Source: a virus (lineage: Duplodnaviria; Caudoviricetes). From it: a DNA stretch of 61,310 nt. The notes under the pieces are model-generated. The model worked only from the letters and a program-made list of their open reading frames with translations. It was not told the origin of the DNA and made no database searches. Both the position numbers and the translations under genes were made by a program. The stretch spans positions 1 through 61,310 of the IMG/VR virus record IMGVR_UViG_3300032360_000004; one strand, given 5' to 3'. Shown here one piece after another: positions 15,463 through 58,669 of this stretch (positions within the stretch are counted from its first letter, which is position 1; every line of letters begins with the position of its first letter).

Positions 15463-15509
15463 TGGGCCTACCCCGTTTACTACCTAACCACTCAACCAGG
15501 AGCGAGATC

Positions 15510-15896
15510 ATGCCAGCCACCTACCGACTCAAACGGGGCAAGCACCAGCAGACTGTTAGTGGCAGCACTGTGGTGTATAGTGCCCTGGACCCCGCAGGTA
15601 ACCCACGACCCGGCTTCAGCAAGGGCGATGAGTACGTTACCACCGACCGGGACTTGGTGGAACTGTTTGGCCCCCAGAAGTTTGACCGGGTGCCAGACGA
15701 CCAAGTGCCCTCGGCTGTTAGTAGCCCCAAGCAGGCAGAAGCGGCAGCAGTGAACAACCTGGAAGGGCTTGCCACCTTGACTGTTGCCGACCTACGCACC
15801 TTAGCCAACGAGGAAGAAATTGACCTGGACGGGGCTAAGCTAAAGGGCGACATCATATCTGTCTTAGAGGAAGCTGGTATATCCGCCAGCCTCTAA
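15510..15896 (+). CDS. Protein with C-terminal Rho-N/HeH-like domain
   Basis: LATLTVADLRTLANEEEIDLDGAKLKGDIISVL; GGAGCGAG RBS. Confidence 0.7.
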   Translation: MPATYRLKRGKHQQTVSGSTVVYSALDPAGNPRPGFSKGDEYVTTDRDLVELFGPQKFDRVPDDQVPSAVSSPKQAEAAAVNNLEGLATLTVADLRTLANEEEIDLDGAKLKGDIISVLEEAGISASL

Positions 15897-15917
15897 CCCA
15901 TACCGGAGTGTCCAGCT

Positions 15918-16325
15918 ATGGCACGTGCCACCGACGCAGACGTTAGGGCCATCTTAGATGACACCAGTGATATAAGCACCAGCGTACCTATACGTGCTGC
16001 TAACACACTGGTGGACTGGTTAACTAACACCTGTGACAACGCCAGCCTATTAACCACGGCACAGCTTCAAGAAATAGAGACGTGGTTAGCTGCACACTTT
16101 TATGCCCATGCTGATCCCCAGTTCGCCGCTAAGGCTACAGGCGGGGCCAGTGCTACATTCCAGGGCCAGACGGCAATGAACCTGTCCAGCACCCAGTGGG
16201 GCCAAACGGCTATGATGCTGGATGTAACCGGGTGCCTAGCAGCCCGTAGCAAAGGTGGCAACGTGGGCATGGCATGGCTGGGTAAGCCACCCAGCAGCCA
16301 GATAGACTACGACCAACGGGATTAG
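15918..16325 (+). CDS. Head-tail adaptor protein
   Basis: IETWLAAHF, LSSTQWGQTAMMLD; position in the operon. Confidence 0.75.
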   Translation: MARATDADVRAILDDTSDISTSVPIRAANTLVDWLTNTCDNASLLTTAQLQEIETWLAAHFYAHADPQFAAKATGGASATFQGQTAMNLSSTQWGQTAMMLDVTGCLAARSKGGNVGMAWLGKPPSSQIDYDQRD

Positions 16326-16329
16326 TACT

Positions 16330-16695
16330 TTGGCAGTTTTAGAAACCACCGCCCTGCACCAGAAAGCCGTACTATATACGGCTAATGGATTTGACGATTA
16401 CGGCGAACCCAAGGTGGATGCGGCTGTTGAGATAGATGTCCGTTGGGAAATAGGTAAGCACGAGGGCATAAGCCCCACGGGTGCTCCTATAGCTTTGGAC
16501 AGTACCGTAGTGGTAGACCGCGAAATAGCTATAGGCAGTGCAATATGGTTGGGAGCACTGGCAGACTTGCCCAGCCCTGTAACCAACCTTCGCACGGTAA
16601 TTGACTATGCGGAGATCCCAGATATAAAGGGCAGGCAGGTATACCGGACGGTTAGCTTAATGAAGCTGAGCGACGAGATACCCGCCAGTGCATAA
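16330..16695 (+). CDS. Head closure protein
   Basis: DDYGEP..., VRWE; position in the operon. Confidence 0.7.
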   Translation: MAVLETTALHQKAVLYTANGFDDYGEPKVDAAVEIDVRWEIGKHEGISPTGAPIALDSTVVVDREIAIGSAIWLGALADLPSPVTNLRTVIDYAEIPDIKGRQVYRTVSLMKLSDEIPASA

Positions 16696-16700
16696 CTATA

Positions 16701-16952
16701 ATGGAGGAAGAAAGAATACTAGAACTGGTTACGAGTCTGAAAGCACAGGTATCACAGTTACGAAAGCAGGTAGGTAAAATAGAGGAAGCTATGGAAGTCT
16801 ACCAGACAGAAATATCGGGGAACGATCGCAGCATGGGTATTCGTACACGGGTGGCTATTATCTGGCGTACTTATGTGTGGATCCTGTGCAGTGCTAGTGC
16901 CGTTGGTGGCAGTTTCATAACCTGGATGGTCATGCACCACCTACAGCATTAG
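16701..16952 (+). CDS. Coiled-coil plus C-terminal TM protein (holin-like)
   Basis: N-terminal heptads and a hydrophobic C-terminus. Confidence 0.55.
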   Translation: MEEERILELVTSLKAQVSQLRKQVGKIEEAMEVYQTEISGNDRSMGIRTRVAIIWRTYVWILCSASAVGGSFITWMVMHHLQH

Positions 16953-16961
16953 GAGAATACA

Positions 16962-18213: not shown

Positions 18214-18251
18214 GCAGGCTATTAACACCGAGGCCGTAAGAGGAGCGAGGG

Positions 18252-20075: not shown

Positions 20076-20113
20076 CACTACGGGTAAACCCAAACCTTAG
20101 AGGAGCGAGTACG

Positions 20114-27564: not shown

Positions 27565-27627
27565 TAGACGTAGGTCCAACACATTAATACTGCACGCGAA
27601 TTAGGTCTCATACCAGGAGCGAGAAAG

Positions 27628-35476: not shown

Positions 35477-36508
35477 GTGCAACCGTACCAAGACCTGGAG
35501 CACAAGTACGGCCAGTGGATAGGCAACCCCAACACGGTGGCCTGTGCTACCGGTACGGCTGCCCTGCACTTAGCCCTGGAAGCCTTATGTCTGCCACCGG
35601 GCAGCGAGGTGTTAGTGCCCGAGTTTACCATGGTGGCCTGTGCCCGTGCGGTAACCATGGCCGGGCTGGTGCCTGTGTTTGTAGACTGCGATCCCACCAA
35701 TCTACTGGTAAGCCCCAAAGCCTACAGCCAACATATAGGACCACGCACCAGAGCCATAATGGTGGTCCACATATATGGCCGACAGTGTGACATGGTAGGC
35801 GTGTCCACATTAGCAGCACAGCACAACCTAGCCGTGGTAGAAGACCTAGCCGAAGCCCACGGCATAGCACCCCACCCGGCCAGCACCGCAGCCTGCTGGA
35901 GTTTCTACCGGAACAAAATTATAGCCGGTGAGGAAGGTGGTATGGTGGCCTTTAAGCAACAGGCCCACGCCACCAAGGCACGCCAACTACGGAGCCTGGG
36001 ATTCACCCCCGACCATGACTTCAAACACATACCACGGGGCGTTAATGCCCGACTGAGCAATTGCCACGCCACGCTAATACTAGGAAGCCTAGCCACCGTG
36101 GAAGACAACCTGACCAAGCGAACACAGGTGTGTAACTGGTACGACCAGCTAGTGCCCCCGGCCTACCACCAGCCACCCCGTGCAGTGTGCTGGGTGTACG
36201 ACATATGCCTACCATCGGAAACTAACACCTCGCTCCTGGTCAGCAAGTTAAACACGGCAGGGGTGGCAGCCCGTCTAGGGTTTAAGCCCATGAGTGAGCA
36301 ACCAGAATACGCAGCCCCGGTGCAGCACCTAGCCGCTTACCGGGCCAGCAGGCAGGTGGTGTACCTACCAGTACAGCCACGCCTGGAACAGCCACAAGTA
36401 CGGAAGACCGTACAGGCGTTACTGTCAGCCATTCAGTCCCAGTCCCCGCCCTGCGGCATGGGTCCGCTCGCTCCGGCACGTGCCTGTGGGGTGGGGCTGG
36501 GGCGTTAG
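35477..36508 (+). CDS. DegT/DnrJ/EryC1/StrS PLP aminotransferase
   Basis: TGTAALHLAL, VHIYG, VVEDLAEAHG, SFYRNKIIAGEEGG. Confidence 0.93.
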   Translation: MQPYQDLEHKYGQWIGNPNTVACATGTAALHLALEALCLPPGSEVLVPEFTMVACARAVTMAGLVPVFVDCDPTNLLVSPKAYSQHIGPRTRAIMVVHIYGRQCDMVGVSTLAAQHNLAVVEDLAEAHGIAPHPASTAACWSFYRNKIIAGEEGGMVAFKQQAHATKARQLRSLGFTPDHDFKHIPRGVNARLSNCHATLILGSLATVEDNLTKRTQVCNWYDQLVPPAYHQPPRAVCWVYDICLPSETNTSLLVSKLNTAGVAARLGFKPMSEQPEYAAPVQHLAAYRASRQVVYLPVQPRLEQPQVRKTVQALLSAIQSQSPPCGMGPLAPARACGVGLGR

Positions 36509-39013: not shown

Positions 39014-39243
39014 CGTGCTTGCTCCTTAGTGTTGGGCCTCTTACGGCCACGGGGATAGCCCTTGGGCTGTGGTGTGTCGCGGTATAGTTCCGCGTCATGT
39101 AGTGCAATGGTGTAGCGGTAGCCGTGCTGGTTATTACGAGTAGGTACCCGTCGTGCCCGCAACCGGCCCACACGTATAAGGGTGCGGACCTGTTGCGGAC
39201 TACAGCCTATAACCTTGGCTGCCTGAGCAGGGGTTAATACCAT
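39010..39243 (-). CDS. Excisionase-type HTH protein
   Basis: LTPAQAAKVIGCSPQQVRTLIRVGRLRA. Confidence 0.8.
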   Translation of the reverse strand: MVLTPAQAAKVIGCSPQQVRTLIRVGRLRARRVPTRNNQHGYRYTIALHDAELYRDTPQPKGYPRGRKRPNTKEQAR

Positions 39244-40792: not shown

Positions 40793-40907
40793 GGTGTGCT
40801 TGCTCCTAATTGTGGCACATAGTTATATGCCGGGCCAATCATTATAACCGCTAACCGCCACACACCACAACCACCCCCCGGTGGGGTGGTGTGGTATGTG
40901 TAAGAGG

Positions 40908-41105: not shown

Positions 41106-41145
41106 ACGCTTGCTCCTAGTTGTGGGCCAGTGGCCCGGTTAGTTC

Positions 41146-43152: not shown

Positions 43153-43227
43153 GTGCTTGCTCCCGGTTATGGTTGGTAGTGGTTGGTGTGGTCTAGTAGT
43201 AGTATCGGTCGCCGTGCTCAACAGACT

Positions 43228-45678: not shown

Positions 45679-45884
45679 CTGCTTGCTCCCATCCATGTGG
45701 TTACCTGCTGTTAGGGGCAGGGTAGCCCTACGGCCAATTGACCGGGGGGCTGTTATACACAGCAATTGCTGCCGGGTGCAACCCCAGTTTACCCAGCGGG
45801 TAAAAACTGCACCCCCCTGTACAGCTTGGGCCAGTAGTTTAGTATAAACAGTATGCCACGGGTGGCAGCCAGGAGCACAACACA

Positions 45885-46551: not shown

Positions 46552-46584
46552 GTGGTAAGCTATTACTAAGGAGCAAGCACACCA

Positions 46585-47142: not shown

Positions 47143-47158
47143 GGAGCAAGCAACAGCC

Positions 47159-48202: not shown

Positions 48203-48217
48203 GAGGAGCAAGCACTA

Positions 48218-49073: not shown

Positions 49074-49286
49074 ATGGATGTCGAAGTCAGAACAGGTAAC
49101 CTAGTTATCACTCGGAAAACTAATGAGAGTTTTATCATTGGGGATGATATAAAGGTTACCATTCTGGATGTAGGTGTAGACAAGGTACGTGTAGGGATTG
49201 AAGCCCCCAAGACAATTAGCATACATCGCCAAGAAGTCTACAACGCTATACAGAGTGGAAGGGGGGAACAGGCAAACACCATCTAG
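49074..49286 (+). CDS. csrA: Carbon storage regulator CsrA/RsmA homologue
   Basis: LVITRKTNESFIIGDDIKVTILDV..DKVRVGIEAPKTISIHRQEVY, with the RNA-binding HR retained. Confidence 0.95.
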   Translation: MDVEVRTGNLVITRKTNESFIIGDDIKVTILDVGVDKVRVGIEAPKTISIHRQEVYNAIQSGRGEQANTI

Positions 49287-49342: not shown

Positions 49343-50350
49343 ATGCCAAAGAAAACCGGAAGCGGTGGATTTTCCAACAAGCTGGGTAAAGCGGGTCGGA
49401 AAGCGTTTAATACCCACAAGAGCGACGACACTAATATGGGAGGTGGTGCTGAACTGCCGCCCGGCATTGAAGGAGGTATAGCTCAACTGGTGGAGTGCAA
49501 GTTTGACCAGTATAAGCGTGGCCCTAATCAGGGGGAATATTTCTTCTACGCTGCTGCGGTAGTTGTGCAGCCTACTGAGCATGGAGGTATCGGTATTGAG
49601 GGGCTGCGTACCAGTATCATGGAACCGCTGTGTGACACCCCCCAACGCAGCCGACCCGACATGGATGCCCACCTGGACTGGGTGTTAAATGAACTGCGTA
49701 AGCTGGGTGTGGCCACAGACGATATCGACTTTGATGATATTGAAGACGTGGCAGCAGCTATTAAAGCCGAGGGACCTTATATGAGGTTCCGCACGTGGCA
49801 GGGTGAACCCACCGAGCAGTGGCCCAACCCACGGGTTAACCACCAGTGGGGTGGTGCCTGCACATATACCCCGGATGATGACGGGGATGCTGTGGTGGAC
49901 AACACTGATGATGACGATGAAGATGATGAAGATGACACCCCGGCACCAGTGGAAGACACTACTGATAGTTCTGACCTGGACGCACTGGCTGCTGCTTCAG
50001 ATGAAGGTGACGAGGAGGCCCAATCTAAACTGGCCGACGCAGCCTTTGAAGCCGGTGTGGATGAGGAAGATGTTAGTAATGCTGAGAACTGGGTAGCCGT
50101 AGCTGAACTGGTTAAAGCAGTTGACCAGGACGAGACTGATGATGACGACGATGATGATGACGATGACGAGGCTACCGATTGGCAGCCAGAGAAGGGGGAA
50201 GTGTATAGCTATAAGCCCCCCAAGGCACGCAAGACGGTGGACTGCGAAGTGACTGCTGTGTTTAGTGGCAAGGAAACGTGCAACCTTAAAAACCTTGACG
50301 ATGGCAAGGTCTATAAGGCTGTGTCCTGGGATAAGCTGGAGCAGGAATAG
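49343..50350 (+). CDS. Putative ssDNA-binding protein with long acidic C-terminal region
   Basis: Follows the exonuclease and Sak4 genes; OB-like N-terminal half; poly-Asp/Glu tracts. Confidence 0.55.
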   Translation: MPKKTGSGGFSNKLGKAGRKAFNTHKSDDTNMGGGAELPPGIEGGIAQLVECKFDQYKRGPNQGEYFFYAAAVVVQPTEHGGIGIEGLRTSIMEPLCDTPQRSRPDMDAHLDWVLNELRKLGVATDDIDFDDIEDVAAAIKAEGPYMRFRTWQGEPTEQWPNPRVNHQWGGACTYTPDDDGDAVVDNTDDDDEDDEDDTPAPVEDTTDSSDLDALAAASDEGDEEAQSKLADAAFEAGVDEEDVSNAENWVAVAELVKAVDQDETDDDDDDDDDDEATDWQPEKGEVYSYKPPKARKTVDCEVTAVFSGKETCNLKNLDDGKVYKAVSWDKLEQE

Positions 50351-50369
50351 TTTCCAGGCTGCTAGAATT

Positions 50370-50421
50370 CCCAAGGATGGGTTATGGGTGTGTGCTTGCT
50401 CCCTTGGGCCACGGATGGCCC
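50370..50421 (+). ncRNA. Small RNA element: two GGA-loop hairpins flanking the anti-RBS GGGTGTGTGCTTGCTCCCTT (anti-RBS element 3)
   Basis: CCCA-AGGA-TGGG (50370-81) and GGGCCA-CGGA-TGGCCC (50406-21); alternative stem CCCAAGG/CCTTGGG. Confidence 0.6.
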
Positions 50422-50428
50422 TTTATAT

Positions 50429-50502
50429 ACCCCTGTAGCTCAGTCGGTTAGAGCAGGGTGCTCATAACGCTTTGGTCGCAGGTTCGAATCCTGCCGGGGG
50501 TA
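50429..50502 (+). tRNA. tRNA with CAT anticodon, most likely tRNA-Ile2 (lysidine, reads AUA); CCA not encoded
   Basis: Cloverleaf ACCCCTG/CGGGGGT, GCTC/GAGC, loop CTCATAA, GCAGG-TTCGAAT-CCTGC. C4/C5 acceptor pairs and the overall sequence resemble Ile2 tRNAs. Confidence 0.9.
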
Positions 50503-50538
50503 CTAGGGTCAATAGAGTGGAAAGGATACCCACCATCG

Positions 50539-51102
50539 GTGATAAACAAAAAACTAGGGAAGCTGTTAAAGACAGCCAGAGCAACTAAACCCCAGTGGAA
50601 ACTATTACCGTCCGTACTGTTGTGCCCCAATATACCCAAGCCCCTGCACGGTGTAGCACCCCGTGTAATACTAGGTAGTAAGTGGTGGGACGTTACCCGT
50701 AGGGCAGCCTACGCCAGCACCGGGTACCACTGCCAAGCCTGTGGGGTGCATAAGTACCACGCCCGTCTACACCAGTGGTTAGAAGCCCATGAGGAGTACG
50801 ATACCGACTACCTGTTAGGTCGCATGACTTACATACGCTCTGTGCCCCTGTGCCACTACTGCCACGCCTATATACACAGTGGCCGACTGCAAGCCCTGCG
50901 GGACAAAGGTCAGATTAAACCCCAACTACACGACGAGATACTAAGCCACGGTGACCGGGTACTAAGGCAGGCAGGGCTAACCAAGCCACCAACACACAAC
51001 GGTCCTATGGCCGACTGGAGCGACTGGCGACTGGTGCTGAATGACAAACTATATCCACCAAAGTTTAAGACAGTAGAGGAGTGGGAAAAGGAGTTCGCAT
51101 GA
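50539..51102 (+). CDS. HNH-like endonuclease (start uncertain)
   Basis: CQACG, LEAHE, LCHYCHAYIH. Confidence 0.75.
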   Translation: MINKKLGKLLKTARATKPQWKLLPSVLLCPNIPKPLHGVAPRVILGSKWWDVTRRAAYASTGYHCQACGVHKYHARLHQWLEAHEEYDTDYLLGRMTYIRSVPLCHYCHAYIHSGRLQALRDKGQIKPQLHDEILSHGDRVLRQAGLTKPPTHNGPMADWSDWRLVLNDKLYPPKFKTVEEWEKEFA

Positions 51103-53099
51103 TTATAAGCCTAGACACAGAAACTACTGGACTGGATCTACGGCATGGCAGCAGGCCATTCCTGGTGACCATGTACAACAGCGACGACGTTACCACGTGG
51201 TGGGAGTGGGACGTAGACCCACTAACCCGGCAGCCTGTTGTACCCCCCGGTGACCTGGAAGAGGTACAGCAAACTATAGACAGTGCCGAGTTTATAGTTT
51301 TGCAGAACGCTAAGTTCGATGTAGCTGCCCTACAGTCTGTTTACCACGGCACCCTGGAATGGGATTGGTCCAAGGTCTATGACACCCTGTTGGCTGGCCA
51401 CCTGTTAGCAAGCAACCACCCCCACGACCTGACCACTATGGCCCTGATGTACTTGGGTGTAGATATAAAGTCCCAGGACAACACCGTGCAACAAGCCTGC
51501 AACGAGGCCCGTCGTATAGCACGCAGCAGGTACCCAGATTGGTTAATAGCCCGTAGTGACGACCCGACCATGCCCAGTGCTAAGGGTTCCCTAGCTAAGA
51601 GCGATATGTGGTTACCTCGTGCTGTGGCCAAGGTAGAACACTACCCCACTAACCACCTGTGGCATACGGTGTGTGCCCGATACGCCAATGTTGATAGTGA
51701 GGTCACCCTCCACCTGTTTAACCGCCAACGGCAGCTATTAGAGGAGCGGGGCTTGTGGGATATATACCTGACCCGCCTACGGGTGCTACCTATTGCATAT
51801 GACATGGAGAGCCGAGGCATAACTATATGCCGAAGCCGCCTGGAACAACTACAACAGGAGTACACAGAGGAGAGTGGCCAAGCTGGCCGGGTGTGTGTCA
51901 ACATTGCTACTAGTTTTGGTGCGGACCTACGCCTACCTAAAGGGGGTAATAACAACAGCCTGCTTAGTACCGTGTTTGGCAGTATGGGACTGGAGCCTGT
52001 TAAACGGTCTAAGAAAACTGGTGCTCCCAGCCTGGACAAGCAAACTATAGAACACTACGAAGCTACCCTGCCCCCACGAAGTAGGGAACTAACATTCGTA
52101 CAGGCACTAAGACGCAAACGCAAACGCGACACAGCCCTGCAATACATGGAAGGCTATATAAGGTTCTGGCTGCCCTTAGACAGTGACCAGGACACCGGGT
52201 GGTACCGCTTGCACCCCAGCCTAAACCCAACAGGTACGGACACCCTGCGGTGGAGCAGTAGTAACCCCAACGAGCAGAACATCAGCAAGCAGGAAGGGTT
52301 TAACCTGCGGCACTGCTTTGGCCCAGCACCGGGCCGTGAGTGGTGGAGCCTGGATGCTAAGAATATAGAACTGCGTATACCCGCCTATGAGGCTGGGGAG
52401 ACCGAGATGGTAGACCTGTTCGAACGTAGTGACGAACCGCCCTACTACGGCAGCTACCATATGTTAATATTCGACACCCTGCATCCAGACAAGTTTGCCC
52501 AGTACGGTATGGAATGTAAACAGCGGTACGGCAGCACGTGGTACCAGTGGACCAAGAATGGAAACTTCGCTGTGCAGTACGGGGCAGTGGAAGCCAGCGG
52601 TACCGCTGACCGGGCCTATCATATACCGGGTGCCCAGCACCGCATACAGGAACGATTCTCTAAGGTGGCTGCTCTTAATACTAAGATGATAGAGTTCGCC
52701 ACCCAGCACGGTTACGTAGAGACCATGCCAGACCTGACCGTAGATCCCACCCGTGGCTACCCGCTGCTATGTACACTGAGCCAGTGGGGTGAAGTGCTGC
52801 CCACTGTGCCCCTGAACTACCACGTACAGGGAACAGCTATGTGGTGGATGATGAAGGCCATGTTGAGGTGCCAGGAGTACCTGGACACGTTACCCGGCTG
52901 CTACATGGTTATGCAGATACACGACGAACTGGTGTTTGACTTTCCACAAGGCAAGGGGCTACAGCCGTGGCGTACTAATATGCCCCGCATCCGCAGGATT
53001 AAAAGCCTGATGGAAGAGAGTGGTAAGGACCTAGGAATACCCACACCCGTCAGTTTAGAATATCACCCCACCACCTGGAGCGAGGGTATGGTCCTATGA
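51099..53099 (+). CDS. polA: Family A DNA polymerase with 3'-5' exonuclease
   Basis: SLDTETTG, QNAKFD, YANVD; SSSNPNEQNI, LDAKNIELRI, KNGNFAVQYG, QIHDELV. Confidence 0.95.
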   Translation: MIISLDTETTGLDLRHGSRPFLVTMYNSDDVTTWWEWDVDPLTRQPVVPPGDLEEVQQTIDSAEFIVLQNAKFDVAALQSVYHGTLEWDWSKVYDTLLAGHLLASNHPHDLTTMALMYLGVDIKSQDNTVQQACNEARRIARSRYPDWLIARSDDPTMPSAKGSLAKSDMWLPRAVAKVEHYPTNHLWHTVCARYANVDSEVTLHLFNRQRQLLEERGLWDIYLTRLRVLPIAYDMESRGITICRSRLEQLQQEYTEESGQAGRVCVNIATSFGADLRLPKGGNNNSLLSTVFGSMGLEPVKRSKKTGAPSLDKQTIEHYEATLPPRSRELTFVQALRRKRKRDTALQYMEGYIRFWLPLDSDQDTGWYRLHPSLNPTGTDTLRWSSSNPNEQNISKQEGFNLRHCFGPAPGREWWSLDAKNIELRIPAYEAGETEMVDLFERSDEPPYYGSYHMLIFDTLHPDKFAQYGMECKQRYGSTWYQWTKNGNFAVQYGAVEASGTADRAYHIPGAQHRIQERFSKVAALNTKMIEFATQHGYVETMPDLTVDPTRGYPLLCTLSQWGEVLPTVPLNYHVQGTAMWWMMKAMLRCQEYLDTLPGCYMVMQIHDELVFDFPQGKGLQPWRTNMPRIRRIKSLMEESGKDLGIPTPVSLEYHPTTWSEGMVL

Positions 53100-54001
53100 A
53101 GATTGAACAGGTGGCCAAGCTGTCACCACAGGCACGGCTATTATACTGGATACGTGAGCGGCACCAGATTTACCTACGTCGTAAAGCTGGCAAGCCTACA
53201 CCGTGGACCGATGACCAGATACTACAAACAGCCTTCTTTACAAATCCCTACCGTGAGCACGACCGTACTACTATCTGGCTCAGGGAAAACTTTAGGGATG
53301 AGCATAGAAAGCAACCCAGTGTAGTAACTGGGACCATTATATATAGGTGGTTCAATCGCATAGAGACGGGGCAAGTGTTGCTACAACATGGCCTGTTGAC
53401 TAGGTGGAAGCCCCGGCTTGCCATGAGAGTGCTGGGGGAGTTGGCCAAGCCCTTCACCAGTGCCTACATCATTAGCACCCGGTCAGCCCCCAAGGGTACC
53501 AGTAAGCTGGAAGCCGTCTGTAACTATATAGACCAAGTGTGGAACCACAGGACAAGACTGCCAGCCAGGATAGAGACCTGCGGCACCATGCAGCAGACTG
53601 TGGACATACTTAAACAGTATGAAGGGCTAGGACCGTTCATGTCTTACGAGATAGCCTGCGACCTGAGATACACCCGCTACTTACAGGATGCCCCAGACGT
53701 TACTACATACACACAGGTAGGACCGGGTGCTCGCAGGGGCTTATACCGTCTCCAGGGATTACAACCCAAGAAGCGGCTCAACCGTAACACCGGGGGCACT
53801 GGCTGGTACGGGGCCAGTCAGCCAACCCTGGAAGACGAAATAGGAACTGTGCAACAAGTCATGCAGCTTATTAATGGGGGAACTAAGATCCGAGTCCCCG
53901 TGTTTGAAATGAGGGAGGTGGAACATAGTCTGTGCGAGTGGGATAAGTATGAACGGGTGTTACAGGGAGAACGACCCAAACGTAAATACATGGGAGCCTA
54001 G
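53096..54001 (+). CDS. 5-hmdU DNA kinase-like (aGPT-Pplase1), paralogue 1
   Basis: WIRERHQIY..R..G..PWTDDQIL...FTNPYREHDRTT, YRWFN, GLGPFMSYEI.CD, EHSLCEWDKY.R. Confidence 0.85.
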   Translation: MKIEQVAKLSPQARLLYWIRERHQIYLRRKAGKPTPWTDDQILQTAFFTNPYREHDRTTIWLRENFRDEHRKQPSVVTGTIIYRWFNRIETGQVLLQHGLLTRWKPRLAMRVLGELAKPFTSAYIISTRSAPKGTSKLEAVCNYIDQVWNHRTRLPARIETCGTMQQTVDILKQYEGLGPFMSYEIACDLRYTRYLQDAPDVTTYTQVGPGARRGLYRLQGLQPKKRLNRNTGGTGWYGASQPTLEDEIGTVQQVMQLINGGTKIRVPVFEMREVEHSLCEWDKYERVLQGERPKRKYMGA

Positions 54002-54003
54002 TT

Positions 54004-54903
54004 ATGTTGAGTGAGCAAGTGGCCAAGCTAACATCCAGGGACAGGTTTATTTATTGGATACGTGAACGGCACCAGATATATAGGAAACGCAGGGCAGGCC
54101 AGATTGCACCGTGGACAAATGACCCGGTGCTGCGACAATACTTCTTTACCAACCCGTACCGGGAGAACGACAAGGTAACCCAGTGGTTCAGGCAGCACCT
54201 GCGGGAACCCCTGCGGGATGATCCCCGTGTGCTGTTTGCCACCGTGGCCTTTAGGTGGTTTAACCTGCCTAGTACGGGCTGTGCGTTGATGCACTACCCC
54301 AGTGAGGGTAAATGGCCGGGTTTACTGGGCAAGTGGCGTACAGGGGCAGCCACGGCCCTTCTAGGGGGCTTGAAAGAACAGGGTAAGGTGTTTACCGGGG
54401 CATTCAACATATCCGCCAGCGGCAGTACCAAGCCCAAGGTCAACCGGGTGTGTGAGGACTACATAGAACCCGTGTGGAGGGACCGTGCCAACCTGCTGCA
54501 CCGGGTAGAGGGTTGTACCACCCTGCAGGATGCCCACGCCCTGCTAAGGCAATACACCGGGCTGGGTGGTAGTGGCTTTATGGCCTACGAAATCATATGC
54601 GACCTGCGGTATACCTACCTGCTGGAAGACGCCACTGACATATGCACCTGGACCAACCCCGGTCCGGGCTGCCACCGTGGGCTGGCCCGCCTGGAAGGGC
54701 AAAGCCTACAGGGGGCACGACGGGTGAAGGTGGATGAACCACTAATAAAGATGCGGGACTTGCTGGCGTACACCCGTAGACGGCTACCGTCGATGCAGTT
54801 TGAAATGCGGGAGATAGAGCACAGCCTATGTGAGTACGATAAGTATGAGCGAGCACGGCTTAGCGAAGGACACCTTAAAAGAAAGTACCACCCCTCCTCA
54901 TGA
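54004..54903 (+). CDS. 5-hmdU DNA kinase-like (aGPT-Pplase1), paralogue 2
   Basis: Same motif set: PWTNDPVL, FTNPYRENDKVT, FRWFN, FMAYEIICD, GPG, EHSLCEYDKY.R. Confidence 0.85.
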   Translation: MLSEQVAKLTSRDRFIYWIRERHQIYRKRRAGQIAPWTNDPVLRQYFFTNPYRENDKVTQWFRQHLREPLRDDPRVLFATVAFRWFNLPSTGCALMHYPSEGKWPGLLGKWRTGAATALLGGLKEQGKVFTGAFNISASGSTKPKVNRVCEDYIEPVWRDRANLLHRVEGCTTLQDAHALLRQYTGLGGSGFMAYEIICDLRYTYLLEDATDICTWTNPGPGCHRGLARLEGQSLQGARRVKVDEPLIKMRDLLAYTRRRLPSMQFEMREIEHSLCEYDKYERARLSEGHLKRKYHPSS

Positions 54904-55445
54904 CTGTGATTGATATACGTGGCACCCATGGCAGTGGTAAGAGTTGGTGTATGCACCAGCTACTAGACCAGTACGAACACCAACCCATAACTGAGGAAGG
55001 CAAGCACATAGGATACACACTGCCTGACCTGGAAGCAGCCTTGGTAGGTAAGTACGCCACAGTGACCGGGGGTTGTGACGGGGTGGGAACAGCCGATGAG
55101 GTGGTCCGCCGGGTCAGGCTGTTCGCCAGCCAGTACAGGTACGTATTACTAGAGGGGATATTAGTGTCCCACTCATTCAAGCGGTACCACGAGCTAGCCC
55201 TGGAAGTGGGTGACTACCGGTGGTTGTTTATGTCTACACCACTGCGGAACTGCATAGCCCGTGTGCGTGCCAGGAGAAGAGCACGTGGCAACCTGAAACC
55301 ACTAAGCCCACACAACGTAATTAAGGACCACGTCAGCGTGTGGACCAACATACAACGCAAGGCTCGGGACGCAGGCCACCGGGTGGTGGTGGTGCCGTGG
55401 CGTGACCCGCTGCCCACTGTGCTGCACGAACTGGGAGTATCCTAG
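54900..55445 (+). CDS. P-loop nucleotide kinase associated with thymidine hypermodification loci
   Basis: IRGTHGSGKS, GKY...GGCD, LLEG, TPL..CIARV..RR. Confidence 0.8.
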   Translation: MTVIDIRGTHGSGKSWCMHQLLDQYEHQPITEEGKHIGYTLPDLEAALVGKYATVTGGCDGVGTADEVVRRVRLFASQYRYVLLEGILVSHSFKRYHELALEVGDYRWLFMSTPLRNCIARVRARRRARGNLKPLSPHNVIKDHVSVWTNIQRKARDAGHRVVVVPWRDPLPTVLHELGVS

Positions 55446-55525: not shown

Positions 55526-56332
55526 CTAGCTAAACTTCAACATCTTTGCCAAGCCGGGGGCCGTCAGTTTGGGACCCTTGGCCGCAACCTTGCTGGCCTT
55601 CTTGGGTGCCTTCTTGGCCTTGGCCTTGGCCTTGGCCTTGGGGGCAGCCTTGGGGGCAGCCTTCAGGGTCTTGGTGCCCTTGGCCGTGACGGCGAAGCAG
55701 AACCGTGCTCGGCCGTGGTTGTCCTGGGCCTCATGGCTCTTGATGAGTCCCTGACCTTCCAGGCTGTTGGGGTAGCTGGCACCCTTGCTACTGTTGGCAG
55801 CCATCATGCGGGTCAGCCCCTTCAAGATGCCCGTGGCAACCCGGACGTCATTGTAGGACACGTTGCCCTTGGCCTTGGCCACTGCGGTCAGGATTCTAAC
55901 CTGACTGCCCGTGAGTCCAGCAACCTTGGGGCCAGTGGCCTTGCGGGTCTTGCGGCTGGCCTTGGGGCTGGCCTTCTTGGTGTTCTTCTTGGCAGTCTTC
56001 TTGGCAGTCTTCATAGCTTGCTCCTTGCCACTCTTGGTGGCTTTGGAAACTTGACGGGAGGTACGCTGCCCCGACTTCAGCAACAGAGTGCAGGGCACAG
56101 CCTGCACATTGAGGAAACCTTGATTTGTACGGGTGGCAACCTGCTTGGCAGCCAACTCAGGAGAACCGGCCCAACCCAGCACACCGTCTCCGGGCAGGTT
56201 GTAATGTCTGGTCTCGCCGGTTGCAGGGTGGTGGATCCCAGTGGCCGTAATGCAGTGGGTGTAGGTGCGGGCCGTGGTGCGGGTGTGGATGGTGCCGTCT
56301 TGGGCGGTTATGGTGTAGGTTTTCTTGGACAT
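55526..56332 (-). CDS. Histone H1-like Lys/Ala-rich protein with central winged-helix; second in-frame start at 56014
   Basis: KTAKKTAKK and KAAPKAAPKAKAKAK repeats flank LTGSQVRIL...SLEGQGLI...FAVTAKG. A GGAGCAAGC RBS precedes both 56332 and 56014. Confidence 0.75.
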   Translation of the reverse strand: MSKKTYTITAQDGTIHTRTTARTYTHCITATGIHHPATGETRHYNLPGDGVLGWAGSPELAAKQVATRTNQGFLNVQAVPCTLLLKSGQRTSRQVSKATKSGKEQAMKTAKKTAKKNTKKASPKASRKTRKATGPKVAGLTGSQVRILTAVAKAKGNVSYNDVRVATGILKGLTRMMAANSSKGASYPNSLEGQGLIKSHEAQDNHGRARFCFAVTAKGTKTLKAAPKAAPKAKAKAKAKKAPKKASKVAAKGPKLTAPGLAKMLKFS

Positions 56333-56377
56333 GGTTGCTTGCTCCGTTTGCGTGGGCCGTGTGAATGTCATAAACGA

Positions 56378-56406
56378 ACTATCCCAGTTATCGGCAAACA
56401 GCACAA
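56378..56406 (-). promoter_or_regulatory. Candidate sigma70-like promoter for the histone-like gene
   Basis: TTGTGC-17 bp-GATAGT with a TG extension. Confidence 0.4.
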
Positions 56407-56461
56407 GCCCCCTGCACCTGTTTTGGCAAGTTTGTTATAAATAGCAAGCAAACCCCTCGTT

Positions 56462-56923
56462 TTGGAGTCCCAAATGCCCCCAGAAACTTTGCCCCCAAGC
56501 CAAGAAAAGCCGCCAATCGTGTACCTTGCGGTGCCCTACAGCCATGCGGATCCGCTGGTGATGGAGGCCCGTTACCGGGCTGTCACCCACGCAGCCGGGC
56601 GATTGCTGGCACAGGGACGGCACGTGTTCAGCCCCATCACCCACACCCACCCCATAAAGGTAGCTGCCGGTCAGGTTGACCTGTGGGACTCCTGGGCAGC
56701 GTACGACACTGCCGTCATGACCAACCTGTGTAGCAGCATGGTGGTACTATGCCTAAAGGGGTGGCGTACCAGTACCGGGGTGCGTGCTGAAAGACAACTG
56801 GCTCGATCCCTGGGACTGCCTATCAGCTACCTGCTGCCCCAGCATTGTGGCCTCCGCCCCAGATACCCGTACCAAGACTGGCAGCCGATGATCCCCGATA
56901 TCCCAACCCGTCCCAACGCCTAA
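56462..56923 (+). CDS. Nucleoside 2-deoxyribosyltransferase-like (DUF1937-type) protein
   Basis: VYLAVPYSH, VFSPITHTHP, GWRTSTGVRAE. Confidence 0.8.
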   Translation: MESQMPPETLPPSQEKPPIVYLAVPYSHADPLVMEARYRAVTHAAGRLLAQGRHVFSPITHTHPIKVAAGQVDLWDSWAAYDTAVMTNLCSSMVVLCLKGWRTSTGVRAERQLARSLGLPISYLLPQHCGLRPRYPYQDWQPMIPDIPTRPNA

Positions 56924-56956
56924 AACCAGTATCCCAACCGTCCCAGCCCGTCCCAA
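56892..56956. repeat. Helically phased TCCC(A) repeats
   Basis: TCCC starts at 56892, 56901, 56911, 56932, 56941 and 56951. Confidence 0.6.
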
Positions 56957-56964
56957 GGTATTCC

Positions 56965-58098
56965 ATGCACTACCAGTACCGTAATGTAAATGATGCGTTT
57001 GTTGGGCTTGTCCAGGCTATTCACACTGGGGAACTGCCCACGGTGGTGACACCCAGCCGGGCCGGTGAAGTCATGATGGTACCCCACCCGGTGCTGGTCA
57101 GTTACACCCACCCACTGGAGCGGGTGCTGCTGCACACAGGCCGGGACGCTAACCCGTTCTTCCACCTCTTTGAAAGTCTGTGGATGTTGGCCGGGTGCAA
57201 CACCGTGGCTCCACTGCTGTACTACAACAGCCGCATAGCAGCCATTGCCAGCGATGACGGCAAGACGTTTAACGGTGCCTACGGTTACCGCTGGCGACAC
57301 CCCGTGGACCAGCTAGCCGTTATCATTGAACACCTACGGGCCACGCCTGGAAGCCGTCGTGCCGTATTGCAAATGTGGAACACGCAGGATGACCTACTGC
57401 GGGTGGATGATACTAAAGACGTGTGCTGCAACACGCACGTGTACTTTAGCGTGGAACAGGGCACGTGTCCTGACTGCAACGGCACTGGCTATAACAGTGT
57501 GTGGAGCTTGGGCACCCAAGGACCAGAGCCTTGCACACGGTGCAACGGCTTACCCCACGACCAACCCACCTACCTGAACATGACCGTATGCAATAGGAGC
57601 AACGATCTGCTGTGGGGTTTGCTGGGTGCCAACGTGGTCCACTTCAGTGTGCTGCAAGAATACGTAGCCCTGAGCCTGGGATTACAGGTTGGCACCTACT
57701 ACCAGTTTACTAACAACCTGCACGTGTACACCGAAAGGTGGACCCCGGAAAAGTGGTCTGCCTTTGAGCGGTCCAAAGGGCAGGCACCTTACGCACTTCC
57801 ACAGGCCAAGCGTGTACCGTTGGTAGAGCAGCCGGACAGGTTCAATGCAGAGTGTAAGCAGTTTGTGGACGGGCCACTCATACCGCCAACCCTTGTAGGA
57901 GAGGGGCGGTTTAACTGGAAGGAGCCGTTCTTACAACACGTGGCTGCTCCCATGTGTTGGGCCTACCGTCTATACAAGCAACGGGAATACGCCCTAGCTT
58001 TAAGAACTGTGGACGAGGTGTGGGACCGTGACTGGCGGACTGCCGCTACCAACTGGATACAAAAACGGCAGGCCCGGTATCTGGATAAGTCATCATAA
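56965..58098 (+). CDS. Thymidylate synthase homologue, probable dUMP hydroxymethyltransferase, with DnaJ-type Zn-finger insertion
   Basis: RDANPFFH..ESLWMLAG, GAYG.RW, SRRAVLQMW, KDVCCN, NRSND..WG..GAN, NNLHVY; insert CPDCNGTG...CTRCNG. Confidence 0.85.
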   Translation: MHYQYRNVNDAFVGLVQAIHTGELPTVVTPSRAGEVMMVPHPVLVSYTHPLERVLLHTGRDANPFFHLFESLWMLAGCNTVAPLLYYNSRIAAIASDDGKTFNGAYGYRWRHPVDQLAVIIEHLRATPGSRRAVLQMWNTQDDLLRVDDTKDVCCNTHVYFSVEQGTCPDCNGTGYNSVWSLGTQGPEPCTRCNGLPHDQPTYLNMTVCNRSNDLLWGLLGANVVHFSVLQEYVALSLGLQVGTYYQFTNNLHVYTERWTPEKWSAFERSKGQAPYALPQAKRVPLVEQPDRFNAECKQFVDGPLIPPTLVGEGRFNWKEPFLQHVAAPMCWAYRLYKQREYALALRTVDEVWDRDWRTAATNWIQKRQARYLDKSS

Positions 58099-58652
58099 TG
58101 ATTTTACCTACAGCAGTACGCAGCAAACGCAATTTCGTAGAGCGGTACCAGCGGGGTGAGTTCGGAAACCGCAGCCCTACCTGGAATGACCTAACGGAAT
58201 GCCTAGCTAGCGGGTACACGGGATTGGTACATATCCGTAACCGGGTACGTGGTGGGGCTACATGGTATGACGTGCCTCACGGGGGGCTACAAGATGCGTG
58301 GAAGCACGCTGTTGATAAGTGCGGCAAGATCCACCTATACATAAGTGCAATGGCCCCAACGGACCGCACCGTGCTCCAGGGAGAAGTACAGCAGGGCTAC
58401 CACGGGCTGGATCTATATTACACCACCGTAGCTCAACCCATGCGGCAGGCACTAGCCACCAGCAGCAGGCAGGTACGTGGTATAATGGCTAGTTGGCTAC
58501 TGCGGTACCACCTGTGTCCTAATAGCCATGACTGGCTGTTGTACCTGCTGGACGCCTACCCCAATCACGTGGTGGAGTTTAGTGCGTACGAAAGACCATG
58601 GGGAACAGTACCGGGGCACAACACAGTCTTCTGGGAAGTCCGTCAATACTAA
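58098..58652 (+). CDS. Conserved-looking hypothetical protein in the modification cluster (possible degenerate ATP-grasp)
   Basis: TAATG-coupled to the TS gene; GEFGN, QGEV, VVEFS, FWEVR. Confidence 0.55.
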   Translation: MILPTAVRSKRNFVERYQRGEFGNRSPTWNDLTECLASGYTGLVHIRNRVRGGATWYDVPHGGLQDAWKHAVDKCGKIHLYISAMAPTDRTVLQGEVQQGYHGLDLYYTTVAQPMRQALATSSRQVRGIMASWLLRYHLCPNSHDWLLYLLDAYPNHVVEFSAYERPWGTVPGHNTVFWEVRQY

Positions 58653-58669
58653 TAGAGGGAGCAAGCACT

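What the first reader, a model, noticed from the sequence alone, without database searches (positions are those of the whole stretch)
15499..58666. Genome-wide extended RBS motif GGAGCAAGC whose variants all preserve pairing to a phage-encoded complement: candidate antisense translational regulon
Seen: exact GGAGCAAGC lies 1-7 nt before 11 ATGs. On + these are 46570, 47143, 48205 and 58658; on - they are 39017-25, 40798-806, 41108-16, 43155-63, 45681-89, 56016-24 and 56337-45. Late genes carry GGAGCGAG (15499, 18242, 20102, 27616; GAGCGAG at 34489 and also at middle gene 49326). Two more variants are GGAGTGAG (17969) and GGAGTAGGC (- strand 43451-59). Established: the canonical 16S anti-SD explains GGAG(GUG) but not the CAAGC extension. 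Seen: every substitution (C>U, A>G) still pairs with 5'-GCUUGCUCC-3' through G.U wobble. The copies I found that do not precede a plausible gene are in the complementary orientation inside structured + strand elements (3050-58, 36466-74, 50394-402). Inference: phage RNAs pair with a barcoded RBS to repress, time or possibly activate translation of a whole gene class. I do not know of a described system of this kind.
Basis: partly seen in the sequence, partly recalled or inferred. Interest (0 to 1): 0.92.

Follow-up and report, generated by a model that had tools for sequence, protein, structure and literature searches.

The report
Phage start-codon motif with matching hairpin loops
An uncultured marine phage puts the same nine-letter ribosome-binding signal in front of eleven genes, and it also carries hairpins whose loops are the exact complement of that signal, which suggests a testable RNA switch for a kind of phage motif that has lacked an explanation since 2011.

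Summary
GGAGCAAGC occurs 14 times where 0.62 are expected, and 11 copies lie 1-7 nt before ATGs that open ORFs of 65-609 aa (P about 2e-15). Late genes use GGAGCGAG.

The motif belongs to a described kind: the start-associated sequences (SAS) of cluster K mycobacteriophages, whose function is unknown.

New here:
It folds as a small stem with a 7-nt loop.
- On the late-gene strand the two loops read CUUGCUC (upstream of the late genes) and CUCGCUC (3' end of the late genes). These are exact complements of the early and late RBS variants.
- In six related phages, a strong hairpin beside the last late gene carries, on that strand, a loop complementary to that phage's own RBS variant.
- In cluster K phages the lone reversed SAS copy is also a conserved hairpin loop. 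It lies where late transcription is reported to start.

Best reading (about 0.4): late transcripts carry anti-RBS loops that mask these RBSs. No transcript or effect is shown. The main rivals are a decoy for a protein or the ribosome (the phage encodes CsrA) and a purely cis-acting signal.

The parts
39017..39025 (-). GGAGCAAGC, 3 nt before the ATG (39013) of the 609-aa helicase
40798..40806 (-). GGAGCAAGC, 5 nt before the ATG (40792) of a 513-aa protein
41108..41116 (-). GGAGCAAGC, 2 nt before the ATG (41105) of a 65-aa ORF. A GGGCC..GGCCC hairpin lies just upstream.
43155..43163 (-). GGAGCAAGC, 2 nt before the ATG (43152) of a 124-aa ORF. The 9-mer plus AC is kept in relative G438, while the flanks have diverged.
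45681..45689 (-). GGAGCAAGC, 2 nt before the ATG (45678) of an 89-aa ORF
46570..46578 (+). GGAGCAAGC, 6 nt before the ATG (46585) of a 185-aa protein of the UDG superfamily
47143..47151 (+). GGAGCAAGC, 7 nt before the ATG (47159) of the 347-aa exonuclease. It starts right after the upstream stop codon.
48205..48213 (+). GGAGCAAGC, 4 nt before the ATG (48218) of the 284-aa Sak4-like annealing protein
56337..56345 (-). GGAGCAAGC, 4 nt before the ATG (56332) of a 268-aa protein with weak PadR/MarR-like matches
56016..56024 (-). GGAGCAAGC, 1 nt before an internal in-frame ATG (56014) of the same gene. It predicts a 162-aa C-terminal isoform.
58658..58666 (+). GGAGCAAGC, 3 nt before the ATG (58670) of a 165-aa MazG-domain protein
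15499..15506 (+). Late variant GGAGCGAG before the ATG at 15510 (128 aa). Kept in G438.
18242..18249 (+). Late variant GGAGCGAG before the ATG at 18252 (82 aa). Kept in G438.
20102..20109 (+). Late variant GGAGCGAG before the ATG at 20114 (149 aa). In 7 of 7 relatives with a detectable orthologue, 6 have GGAGC and 3 have GGAGCGA at the predicted start.
27616..27623 (+). Late variant GGAGCGAG before the ATG at 27628 (632 aa)
3046..3061 (+). 16-mer GTCCGCTTGCTCCGGC, which reads GCCGGAGCAAGCGGAC on the - strand. It forms the stem CCG/CGG with a 7-nt loop, CUUGCUC on the + strand, the exact complement of GAGCAAG. It lies in the 419-nt non-coding stretch ahead of the late genes.
36442..36499 (+). 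Long hairpin (dG -39.5 kcal/mol, z -2.9) whose apical loop on the + strand is CUCGCUC, the complement of the late variant GAGCGAG. The 16-mer lies at 36462-36477, 31 nt before the stop (36506-36508) of the last + gene of the late block (35477-36508).
50394..50402 (-). Orphan GGAGCAAGC with an upstream GGGCC..GGCCC hairpin and no start codon after it. It lies between two + genes, 27 nt before tRNA-Met. The + strand fold is not significant.
10940..10948 (+).
49074..49286 (+). 70-aa CsrA-family RNA-binding protein, a candidate protein partner. Its own RBS is GGAGGCTAAC.

Best explanation
GGAGCAAGC is a start-associated sequence: a Shine-Dalgarno core (GGAG) plus a genome-specific extension (CAAGC). 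It marks the replication and nucleotide-metabolism genes. GGAGCGAG marks a set of late genes.

The phage also carries hairpins that display the exact complement of each variant in their loops on the late-gene strand. One lies ahead of the late gene block (3046-3061, loop CUUGCUC). The other lies at its 3' end (36442-36499, loop CUCGCUC).

The most likely mechanism is that late transcripts, or stable hairpin fragments left from them, pair through these loops with the marked RBSs. The loops resemble the 16S anti-SD but extend into the phage-specific letters. Pairing would mask the SD and so shut off or time translation of a whole gene class.

Shown: the motif, its tie to start codons, the loop complements, and their covariation with the RBS variant across relatives.
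Inferred: that the late strand is transcribed through the hairpins, that the loops pair with the RBSs, and that translation falls as a result.
For: (1) Selection acts on the 9-mer itself. There are 11 identical copies with unrelated flanks. In the close relative G438 (about 88% nt identity over the late block, about 78% at these two early genes) the upstream flanks of two shared early genes differ while GGAGCAAGC is kept. Orthologous genes in more distant relatives carry other spacers, so copies are made alike within a genome.

(2) GCCGGAGCRAGCGGAC occurs exactly twice. It folds as CCG/CGG with a 7-nt loop. The single differing letter is the same A/G that separates the early and late RBS variants.

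(3) The upstream hairpin lies in a perfectly conserved 33-nt block (alignment columns 301-333). The surrounding columns 217-400 of the W/G438 non-coding alignment hold most of the differences.

(4) In W, G436, G439, G419, G422 and G431 a stable hairpin (dG -34 to -51 kcal/mol on the late strand; z -2.9 to -5.2 for the three tested) lies at a junction of convergent genes. In five genomes it lies from 31 nt before to about 40 nt after the stop of the last late-strand gene. In G419 it lies about 700 nt past that stop, inside a 1099-nt gap. The late-strand loops are CUCGCUC, AUUCGCUCC, CUUGCUCC, CUUCGCUCC, UUGUUAGCUCCUU and UUUUUUGCUCCUUU. Each complements that genome's own commonest start-associated motif.

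(5) SD-type starts with at least 8 nt of perfect complementarity to the loop number 11, 5, 13, 2, 12, 7 and 3 (for W upstream, W 3' end, G436, G439, G422, G431, G419). Shuffled loops give means of 0.13-1.0, with maxima of 3-8.

(6) In all six genomes the complement is on the TerL strand.

(7) An independent system shows the same design. In cluster K phage Anaya the single reversed SAS copy is the apical loop (CCUCCUAUCC) of a hairpin in a gap between two rightward genes. In 7 cluster K phages the loop is invariant, 98.9% of stem cells pair against 32-50% when partners are slid, and one pair shows a change on both sides. A search found the element in 122 Mycobacterium phage records. In Adephagia it lies between genes 92 and 93, where the authors place the start of late transcription (PMC11373665, passages read).
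Against: - No RNA data exist. No listed sequencing run holds the phage as RNA. No sigma-70-like promoter was found on the + strand upstream of 3046. Whether the upstream hairpin lies inside the late leader is unknown.
- The stems are palindromic, so each hairpin also forms on the other strand with the RBS-like motif in its loop. Comparative data cannot tell a decoy from an antisense loop.
- The upstream hairpin is weak on its own (dG -16.9, z +0.7).
- G440 has a strong variant (AGGAGCGA, 10 start-associated copies), but no clear loop hairpin was found in its 53%-complete record.
- The unrelated motif-bearing phages G001/G003 and G002 have no complementary copy. In G002 the non-start exact copy sits in a possible loop on the sense strand of a gene.
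- In G439 the loop complements GGAGCAAG, but most of its RBSs are GGAGCAAA, so only 2 starts reach 8 nt.
- Covariation in the cluster K stems is modest: 96 of 500 shuffles reach the observed score.
- MAFFT and RNAalifold could not align the six marine hairpins.
- Gene calls and start codons come from my own simple ORF scoring.
Confidence: 0.4

Rival explanations
1. Decoy or operator for an RBS-binding factor. A sequence-specific protein, or the 30S subunit itself, recognises GGAGCRAR on mRNA. The protein could be the phage CsrA homologue, a host CsrA or an unknown phage protein. The hairpins then present the same motif in a loop on the early-strand transcript, as a high-affinity decoy, an autoregulatory site or a stabiliser.
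For: - Each hairpin also folds on the early strand with the RBS-like motif in its loop.
- The window encodes a genuine CsrA homologue: PF02599 at E 2.3e-22, and E about 4e-15 to RsmE and CsrA structures. CsrA proteins bind GGA motifs at RBSs (PMC12038007 and PMC4894983, abstract or passages).
- CsrA is frequent in this phage family: over the Pfam cut-off in 15 of 29 helicase relatives and in 4 of 4 nearest TerL relatives tested.
- In G438 the upstream element lies between a leftward early gene block and the late genes.
- In G002 the loop copy is on the sense strand of a gene.
Against: - Phage CsrA does not track the feature. Among hairpin-bearing genomes, W, G419, G439 and G431 have CsrA, while G436 and G422 (both complete) lack it. 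Among genomes without the hairpin, G414, G423, G434 and G442 have it.
- G001-G003 have no CsrA.
- In W a strong leftward terminator (36762-36723) lies about 250 nt before the 3' hairpin on the early strand.
- The only promoter-like site on the - strand near 3050 (2837-2810) would fire away from the element.
- In cluster K the neighbouring genes are all rightward, so the transcribed strand carries the complement, not the motif.
- Two decoys that differ only at the A/G position are harder to explain with one protein.
Confidence: 0.22
2. Cis-only signal. GGAGC plus purines is simply this lineage's preferred strong RBS. Copies become identical within a genome through recombination at short homologies, or through exchange of gene cassettes at the motif. 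The junction hairpin is an ordinary two-way terminator that happens to hold one more copy, homogenised along with the rest.
For: - The family as a whole favours C after GGAG: 42% in W and 33% in G436 and G422, against 22% in unrelated phage loci.
- Orthologous genes have different spacers in different genomes.
- In G438, genes with no homologue in W carry the motif.
- The phage encodes Sak4-like and exonuclease recombination proteins.
- Unrelated phages (G001/G003, G002) show the same motif without any complement.
- The two 16-mers are direct repeats at the two ends of the late block.
Against: - Nine to eleven bases is very short for gene conversion.
- A terminator loop is normally free to drift. 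Yet in six diverged genomes it tracks the RBS variant, and it stays on the same strand and at the same junction.
- The closing stem CCG/CGG around the motif is kept in W (twice), G439 and G419.
- The same design recurs in cluster K.
Confidence: 0.2
3. DNA-level operator. The asymmetric 9-mer is the binding site of a phage DNA-binding protein that acts on transcription in an orientation-dependent way, like the stoperators of cluster A mycobacteriophages. The hairpin copies are further sites.
For: - The sites are asymmetric and oriented with transcription.
- The phage encodes HTH proteins: HTH_26 at 36787-37035 (-), and weak PadR/MarR-like matches at 55526-56332 (-). The latter gene carries two motif copies.
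- Stoperators are cited as the contrast case in PMC3203893 (passage read).
Against: - The motif contains the SD. It lies 6-12 nt (GGAG to ATG) from 11 start codons, including starts that directly follow the upstream stop codon and one internal start. This fits action on mRNA.
- Presentation in a loop has no meaning in duplex DNA.
Confidence: 0.08
4. The extension pairs with the host ribosome, either an unusual 16S 3' tail or another rRNA segment, so the motif is only a longer Shine-Dalgarno sequence.
For: - The same AAGGAGCAAG appears before ATGs in phages unrelated to the window.
- GCUUGCUCC resembles 16S helix-6 hairpins of some bacteria (recalled, not tested).
Against: - The canonical tail ...CACCUCCUUU (recalled; the CCUCC core is stated in the abstract of PMC10783764) pairs with AAGGAG but not with CAAGC.
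- One genome uses two variants in two gene classes, and relatives use others.
- In 401 Pseudomonadota genomes, GGAGCAAG-N(1-8)-ATG reaches at most about 39 per genome (about 13 per Mb at the highest), against 179 per Mb in the window.
- The host is unknown, so its 16S could not be read.
Confidence: 0.02

Closest known systems
Start-associated sequences (SAS/ESAS) of cluster K mycobacteriophages (Pope et al. 2011, PMC3203893). SAS-like motifs are also reported in Microbacterium cluster EF phages (PMC7302621) and in Citrobacter phage Mordin (PMC4611695).
   Same: - A short asymmetric repeat in 10-19 copies, a few nt before start codons and mostly ATG.
- It contains the SD core plus conserved letters that 16S cannot pair with.
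- It is confined to non-structural genes.
- One stray copy lies in the opposite orientation.
- The function is unknown (passages read).
   Different: - Different sequence (GGAGCAAGC against GGGATAGGAGCCC) and different hosts (marine, unknown).
- Many copies here directly follow the upstream stop codon instead of lying in gaps of more than 50 bp.
- No 17-bp ESAS repeats were seen.
- A second variant marks late genes.
- The complement presented in a hairpin loop is not mentioned in the SAS passages I read. The word 'antisense' occurs 0 times in PMC3203893.
c4 antisense RNA of phages P1 and P7
   Same: A phage RNA whose loop sequences pair around a ribosome-binding site of a phage mRNA and block translation (review PMC12197685, passage read).
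   Different: c4 acts on one target operon (ant) and controls immunity. Here 5-13 RBSs per genome would be targets, and the element lies at the ends of the late gene block.
C-rich-loop small RNAs that mask SD sequences of many mRNAs (Staphylococcus aureus RNAIII, RsaE and relatives). Recalled; no paper read here.
   Same: Hairpin loops that mimic the anti-SD pair with the SDs of a set of mRNAs and repress them as a class.
   Different: Those are bacterial, free-standing sRNA genes with short UCCC seeds. Here the seeds extend 3-9 nt past the SD core into a phage-specific extension and would be part of late mRNAs.
T4 RegA translational repressor and RegB endoribonuclease, which cuts GGAG in early SDs. 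Recalled; the review PMC3014915 was seen in a search listing only.
   Same: Phage-encoded, class-wide control of early genes that acts at their RBSs.
   Different: Those are proteins. No RegA or RegB homologue was found among about 50 window proteins scanned.
CsrA/RsmA regulators and their phage-borne homologues (Campa et al. 2021, PMC8450108)
   Same: The window encodes a CsrA homologue. CsrA binds GGA at RBSs and in hairpin loops.
   Different: - Published phage CsrAs are proposed to act on host mRNAs (passages read).
- Here CsrA presence does not track the motif or the hairpin.

Membership tests
Start-associated sequences (SAS) | A short asymmetric repeat, many copies per genome, far above chance | tested here: met
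   14 copies against 0.62 expected. It is the commonest 9-mer in the window.
Start-associated sequences (SAS) | Located a few nt upstream of start codons, mostly ATG, in one orientation relative to the gene | tested here: met
   11 of 14 copies lie 1-7 nt before ATGs of ORFs of 65-609 aa; P about 2e-15.
Start-associated sequences (SAS) | Contains the SD core plus conserved positions that cannot pair with the 16S 3' end | tested here: inconclusive
   CAAGC does not complement the canonical tail (recalled sequence). The host and its 16S are unknown.
Start-associated sequences (SAS) | Restricted to non-structural (early) genes | tested here: met
   All 11 copies lie between 39 and 59 kb, before helicase, exonuclease, Sak4, UDG-like, MazG and small ORFs. 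A separate variant, GGAGCGAG, marks late genes.
Start-associated sequences (SAS) | Upstream extended element (ESAS: imperfect 17-bp inverted repeats or a promoter) | tested here: not met
   Only short GC hairpins precede 3-4 copies. There is no shared upstream repeat. Several copies directly follow the upstream stop codon.
Trans-acting antisense RNA with an anti-SD loop | Seed complementary to the RBSs of several targets | tested here: met
   Loops CUUGCUC and CUCGCUC. 11 and 5 SD-type starts have at least 8 nt of perfect complementarity. Shuffled loops average 0.20 and 0.13.
Trans-acting antisense RNA with an anti-SD loop | Seed exposed in a predicted loop of a stable structure | tested here: met
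   36440-36500 (+): dG -39.5, z -2.9, 7-nt apical loop. 3025-3085 (+): small hairpin only, z +0.7.
Trans-acting antisense RNA with an anti-SD loop | Seed and target co-vary in relatives | tested here: met
   In six genomes the loop matches that genome's own RBS variant. G440 is an exception (partial record).
Trans-acting antisense RNA with an anti-SD loop | The RNA is made, and it lowers translation of its targets | not testable with these tools
   No RNA holder was listed. No promoter was identified.
CsrA regulon | A CsrA protein is present | tested here: met
   PF02599 at E 2.3e-22. PDB CsrA and RsmE at E about 4e-15, with the HR(Q/E)E motif aligned.
CsrA regulon | Presence of the regulator tracks presence of the motif and hairpin across relatives | tested here: not met
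   G436 and G422 have the motif and hairpin but no CsrA. G414, G423, G434 and G442 have CsrA but no such motif or hairpin.
Stoperator-type DNA operators | The site is independent of the translation start, and a cognate DNA-binding repressor exists | tested here: not met
   The site contains the SD and lies 6-12 nt (GGAG to ATG) from the starts, one of them internal. Binding by a repressor is not testable here.

The most novel reading that the evidence does not exclude
Start-associated sequences and their lone reversed copies are two halves of one general phage switch. Late transcripts carry hairpin loops that imitate the ribosome's anti-SD but extend into a phage-private extension. When late transcription starts, these loops pair with every RBS that bears the extension and turn off (or retime) the early gene class. 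The same design exists in a family of marine siphoviruses and in cluster K mycobacteriophages. This would explain the SAS motif, unexplained since 2011, and the family-wide preference for GGAGC over GGAGG.
Probability: 0.3. Interest if true: 0.85.

Novelty: new variant of a known kind. Interest (0 to 1): 0.7.

Why it matters
SAS-type motifs have been catalogued in phage genomes since 2011 without a mechanism. A 2025 survey of 188 cluster K genomes still calls for functional tests (PMC12699233, passages read).

The link found here gives a concrete hypothesis. The start-associated motif has an exact complement in a hairpin loop on the late strand, the two co-vary across relatives, and the same design appears in culturable cluster K phages. 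The hypothesis can be tested with standard phage genetics in Mycobacterium smegmatis.

If it is right, it adds a class-wide RNA-RNA translational switch to the known ways of timing phage genes. It also gives a sequence signature (recurrent RBS plus complementary loop) for sorting early from late genes in uncultured phage genomes.

Tried and rejected
- Host 16S. The host stays unknown. A scan of genome contigs with the helicase gave only one good hit, a contig of a MAG labelled archaeon (55% identity), probably a mis-binned phage.
- Host genes sharing the motif. In 401 Pseudomonadota genomes no genome came near the phage's density. That sample includes the unpublished genome G391 as one of the 401; nothing is drawn from it alone. 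Other phyla were not scanned.
- Expression. No RNA holder was listed for window 45001-55000.
- Natural variation. Contigs of four marine DNA runs are nearly identical to the window. None of the 41 listed differences falls in a motif copy, but 131 rows were not shown, so nothing follows from this.
- Cultured relatives. None at the DNA level. Protein matches are only 22-32% identical.
- The 20-kb helicase loci showed no recurrent 9-mer. Whole genomes later did.
- GGAG-CAAG is not generally favoured in unrelated phage loci: 10 of 1136 and 8 of 744 sites.
- Phage CsrA as the partner. The co-occurrence test was negative.
- An alignment fold of the six marine junction hairpins failed. MAFFT could not align them, and there were 0 predicted pairs.
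- A perfect-stem hairpin scan found G439 but missed the bulged hairpins of W and G436. My loop classifier counted pairs loosely, and I do not rely on its tallies.
A scan with the 16-mer gave 21 hits, of which 20 look like chance and one is the close relative G438.
- Fetching Mordin added little.
- Supplementary figures of the SAS papers (site lists, maps) were not opened. They may already show the position of the reversed site.

Full report
WHAT THE WINDOW IS. The window is a whole IMG/VR virus record of 61,310 bp, linear and estimated 87% complete. It looks like a siphovirus. It has small and large terminase subunits, portal, head-morphogenesis protein, tape measure, helicase, exonuclease, a Sak4-like annealing protein, DNA polymerase and thymidylate-synthase-like genes, plus one tRNA-Met. 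It has no close cultured relative. Marine metagenomes hold nearly identical DNA. Genes run on the + strand from 1 to 36.5 kb (late genes from 3.2 kb), on the - strand from 36.8 to 45.9 kb, and mostly on the + strand after that (my own ORF scoring).

THE OBSERVATION. GGAGCAAGC occurs 14 times against 0.62 expected and is the commonest 9-mer in the genome. Eleven copies lie 1-7 nt before an ATG that opens an ORF of 65-609 aa. Only 2.7% of positions have such an ATG, so P is about 2e-15. All eleven lie in the replication and nucleotide-metabolism part of the genome (39-59 kb). One precedes an internal in-frame ATG of a gene with weak PadR-like matches. GGAGCGAG, or GAGCGAG, precedes seven further genes, most of them late. 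A third RBS family, GAAGGAA, precedes about eight ATGs.

The "wobble-preserving" argument is circular, because the variants were picked with a pattern that allows only such changes. Many other GGAG sites near ATGs have other extensions.

IT IS A KNOWN KIND OF MOTIF. Cluster K mycobacteriophages have 11-19 copies of GGGATAGGAGCCC, 3-7 bp before ATGs of non-structural genes. The conserved letters go beyond what 16S can pair with. There is one stray copy in the opposite orientation. [quoted passage not shown] Similar motifs are reported in Microbacterium cluster EF phages and in Citrobacter phage Mordin. Papers from 2024 and 2025 still call the role ill-defined. The window's motif meets the main defining features, but not the upstream ESAS repeat.

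SELECTION ACTS ON THE MOTIF ITSELF. The flanks of the 11 copies are unrelated. A scan with the 16-mer described below found a close relative, G438 (about 88% nt identity over the late genes; TerL 93% aa). There, two shared early genes keep GGAGCAAGC(+AC) while the upstream flanks differ. Small genes absent from the window also carry the motif. The three late GGAGCGAG sites are kept.

More distant relatives share most genes at 35-62% aa identity. They have their own recurrent start-associated motifs:
- G422: CAAGGAGCAAGCC (5 exact GGAGCAAGC copies, all at starts) and CAAGGAGCT
- G436: TTAGGAGCGAA (11 of 16 copies at starts)
- G439: AGGAGCAAA
- G440: AGGAGCGA
- G431: AAAGGAGC
- G419: AGGAGCGA

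Orthologous genes carry different spacers in different genomes. So RBSs are made alike within a genome rather than inherited gene by gene. Two phage lineages unrelated to the window (G001/G003 and G002) also use AAGGAGCAAG before 7-9 ATGs. The motif is not generally favoured in unrelated phage loci. It is not dense in any of 401 Pseudomonadota genomes.

THE COMPLEMENTARY COPIES. It folds as a CCG/CGG stem with a 7-nt loop. On the + (late) strand the loops are CUUGCUC and CUCGCUC. The only letter that differs between the two copies is the A/G that separates the early and late RBS variants. Each loop is therefore a plain Watson-Crick complement of one variant.

The first copy lies in the 419-nt non-coding stretch ahead of the late genes. 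There it forms a perfectly conserved 33-nt block between W and G438, within the part of that alignment that holds most of the differences. The second copy tops a long hairpin (dG -39.5, z -2.9) 31 nt before the stop of the last late gene. The third copy (50394) resembles an ordinary RBS cassette without a gene. It is not in a significant fold.

COVARIATION IN RELATIVES. In W, G436 and G439 the only motif copy near the junction of the convergent late and early blocks is the apical loop of a very stable hairpin. It lies from 31 nt before to about 40 nt after the stop of the last late gene. The late-strand loops are CUCGCUC, AUUCGCUCC and CUUGCUCC (dG -39.5, -40.3 and -37.5; z -2.9, -5.2 and -3.2).

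Scanning convergent junctions added two more genomes. G422 has the loop UUGUUAGCUCCUU, the complement of its CAAGGAGCUAAC RBSs. G431 has UUUUUUGCUCCUUU, the complement of AAAGGAGCAAAAAA. G419 has CUUCGCUCC, in a hairpin of dG -51.5 to -55.9 that lies about 700 nt past the last late-strand gene, inside a 1099-nt gap.

In all six genomes the complement lies on the TerL strand. Starts with at least 8 nt of perfect complementarity to the loop number 2-13 per genome, against means of 0.13-1.0 for shuffled loops. Of the seven genomes with five or more start-associated GGAGC-type 8-mers, six have such a hairpin. The exception is G440, a 53%-complete record. In the seven other family genomes examined, the junction hairpins I looked at have unrelated loops.

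THE SAME DESIGN IN CLUSTER K. In Anaya the single reversed SAS copy lies in the 385-bp gap between the rightward genes 96 and 97. It is the loop (CCUCCUAUCC) of a two-part hairpin on the rightward strand. Across seven cluster K phages the loop is invariant. 98.9% of stem cells pair, against 32-50% when partners are slid. Five pairs vary on one side only, and one pair changes on both sides. The shuffle control is not significant (96 of 500), as expected for such similar sequences. The element is present in 122 Mycobacterium phage records. In Adephagia it lies between genes 92 and 93, where the authors place the start of late transcription (PMC11373665). In the passages I read, Pope et al. do not discuss an antisense role. 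The word 'antisense' occurs 0 times in that paper.

HOW IT MOST LIKELY WORKS. I favour (about 0.4) loop-to-RBS pairing. Late-strand RNA carries loops that resemble the 16S anti-SD (GCUCC against CCUCC) but extend into the phage-specific letters. These loops mask the marked RBSs. This reading explains five things:
- why the extension is conserved
- why the family prefers GGAGC to GGAGG
- why the loop and the RBS change together
- why the window has two loops for two gene classes
- why the element lies at the start or end of late transcription in two unrelated phage groups

The closest described mechanisms are the P1/P7 c4 RNA and bacterial C-rich-loop sRNAs (recalled).

What is missing is any evidence of transcription or of an effect. 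There is also no way here to exclude that the hairpin works on the other strand, as a motif-bearing decoy.

RIVALS. A protein or ribosome decoy (0.22) fits because the hairpins are symmetric and the phage encodes a genuine CsrA homologue. That homologue is common in the family. But its presence does not track the motif or the hairpin. In W, terminator and promoter predictions place the early-strand transcripts away from both elements. In cluster K the transcribed strand carries the complement. A cis-only RBS with homogenised copies (0.2) fits the unrelated phages that lack complements, but not the conserved loop that tracks the variant. A DNA operator (0.08) and a host-rRNA partner (0.02) fit poorly.

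VERDICT. The motif is real. It is a new example of a known but unexplained kind.

Noticed in passing
window 49074-49286 (+): A 70-aa CsrA/RsmA-family protein with a 9-aa N-terminal extension. Its RBS is GGAGGCTAAC, not the motif. CsrA matches pass the Pfam cut-off in 15 of 29 helicase-relative phage records and in 4 of 4 nearest TerL relatives tested, so it is a frequent gene of this phage family.
   Followed up: yes
window 305-2744, 53096-55445, 56845-58098: A likely thymidine-hypermodification set: two 5-hmdU DNA kinase helical-domain proteins plus a weaker third match, an amino acid:DNA transferase, a sulfotransferase, an arginase-family protein and a thymidylate-synthase-like protein. A UDG-superfamily protein lies at 46585.
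   Followed up: partly
window 55526-56332 (-), internal ATG at 56014: The gene with weak PadR/MarR-like matches has a second exact GGAGCAAGC 1 nt before an in-frame internal ATG. This predicts a 162-aa C-terminal isoform that begins MKTAKKTAKK.
   Followed up: partly
window 36509-36790: About 280 nt of non-coding DNA between the convergent blocks. It is full of inverted repeats built on GGCCCGTA-like units (9 copies in the window against 3.6 expected). It ends in a strong leftward terminator at 36762-36723. It could be a structured RNA or an origin.
   Followed up: partly
window 2745-3163: A 419-nt non-coding region ahead of the late genes, with many inverted repeats (whole-region fold z -2.4). 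It is 90% identical to G438. In G438 it separates a leftward block of small early-type genes from the late genes, a gene order different from the window's.
   Followed up: partly
window 41381, 41842, 42742, 37160 (-); 4169, 11677, 19110, 24636 (+): A second recurrent RBS family, (ACT)GAAGGAA(C/A), lies before about eight ATGs. No complementary loop was found for it.
   Followed up: partly
window 49343-50350 (+): A 335-aa protein with long acidic runs, including a poly-Asp stretch encoded by a GATGAT repeat at 50138-50166. This repeat, not the gene, explains the very high metagenome depth in that bin.
   Followed up: yes
window 50429-50503 (+): tRNA-Met (CAT anticodon) begins 8 nt after a GGGCC..GGCCC hairpin and 27 nt after the orphan motif copy. 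If it is co-transcribed, RNase P cleavage would free an upstream RNA that ends in that hairpin.
   Followed up: no
G436 (L230-L233), e.g. 45279, 41553, 36815, 29242: The relative G436 has a longer start-associated motif, TTACCYTTAGGAGCGAA, before many genes in all parts of the genome.
   Followed up: partly
G002 (L165) 13360-16580 (-): An unrelated phage has a tandem run of seven small genes, most preceded by a near-identical ..ACGAATAAGGAGCAAGT-ACC-ATG cassette. This looks like local duplication.
   Followed up: no
L180 (Citrobacter phage Mordin) 8685-15232: The record annotates nine 14-bp repeat_regions directly before the RBSs of early genes. It also annotates a protein 'similar to T4 endoribonuclease RegB' at 3689-4237.
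   Followed up: no
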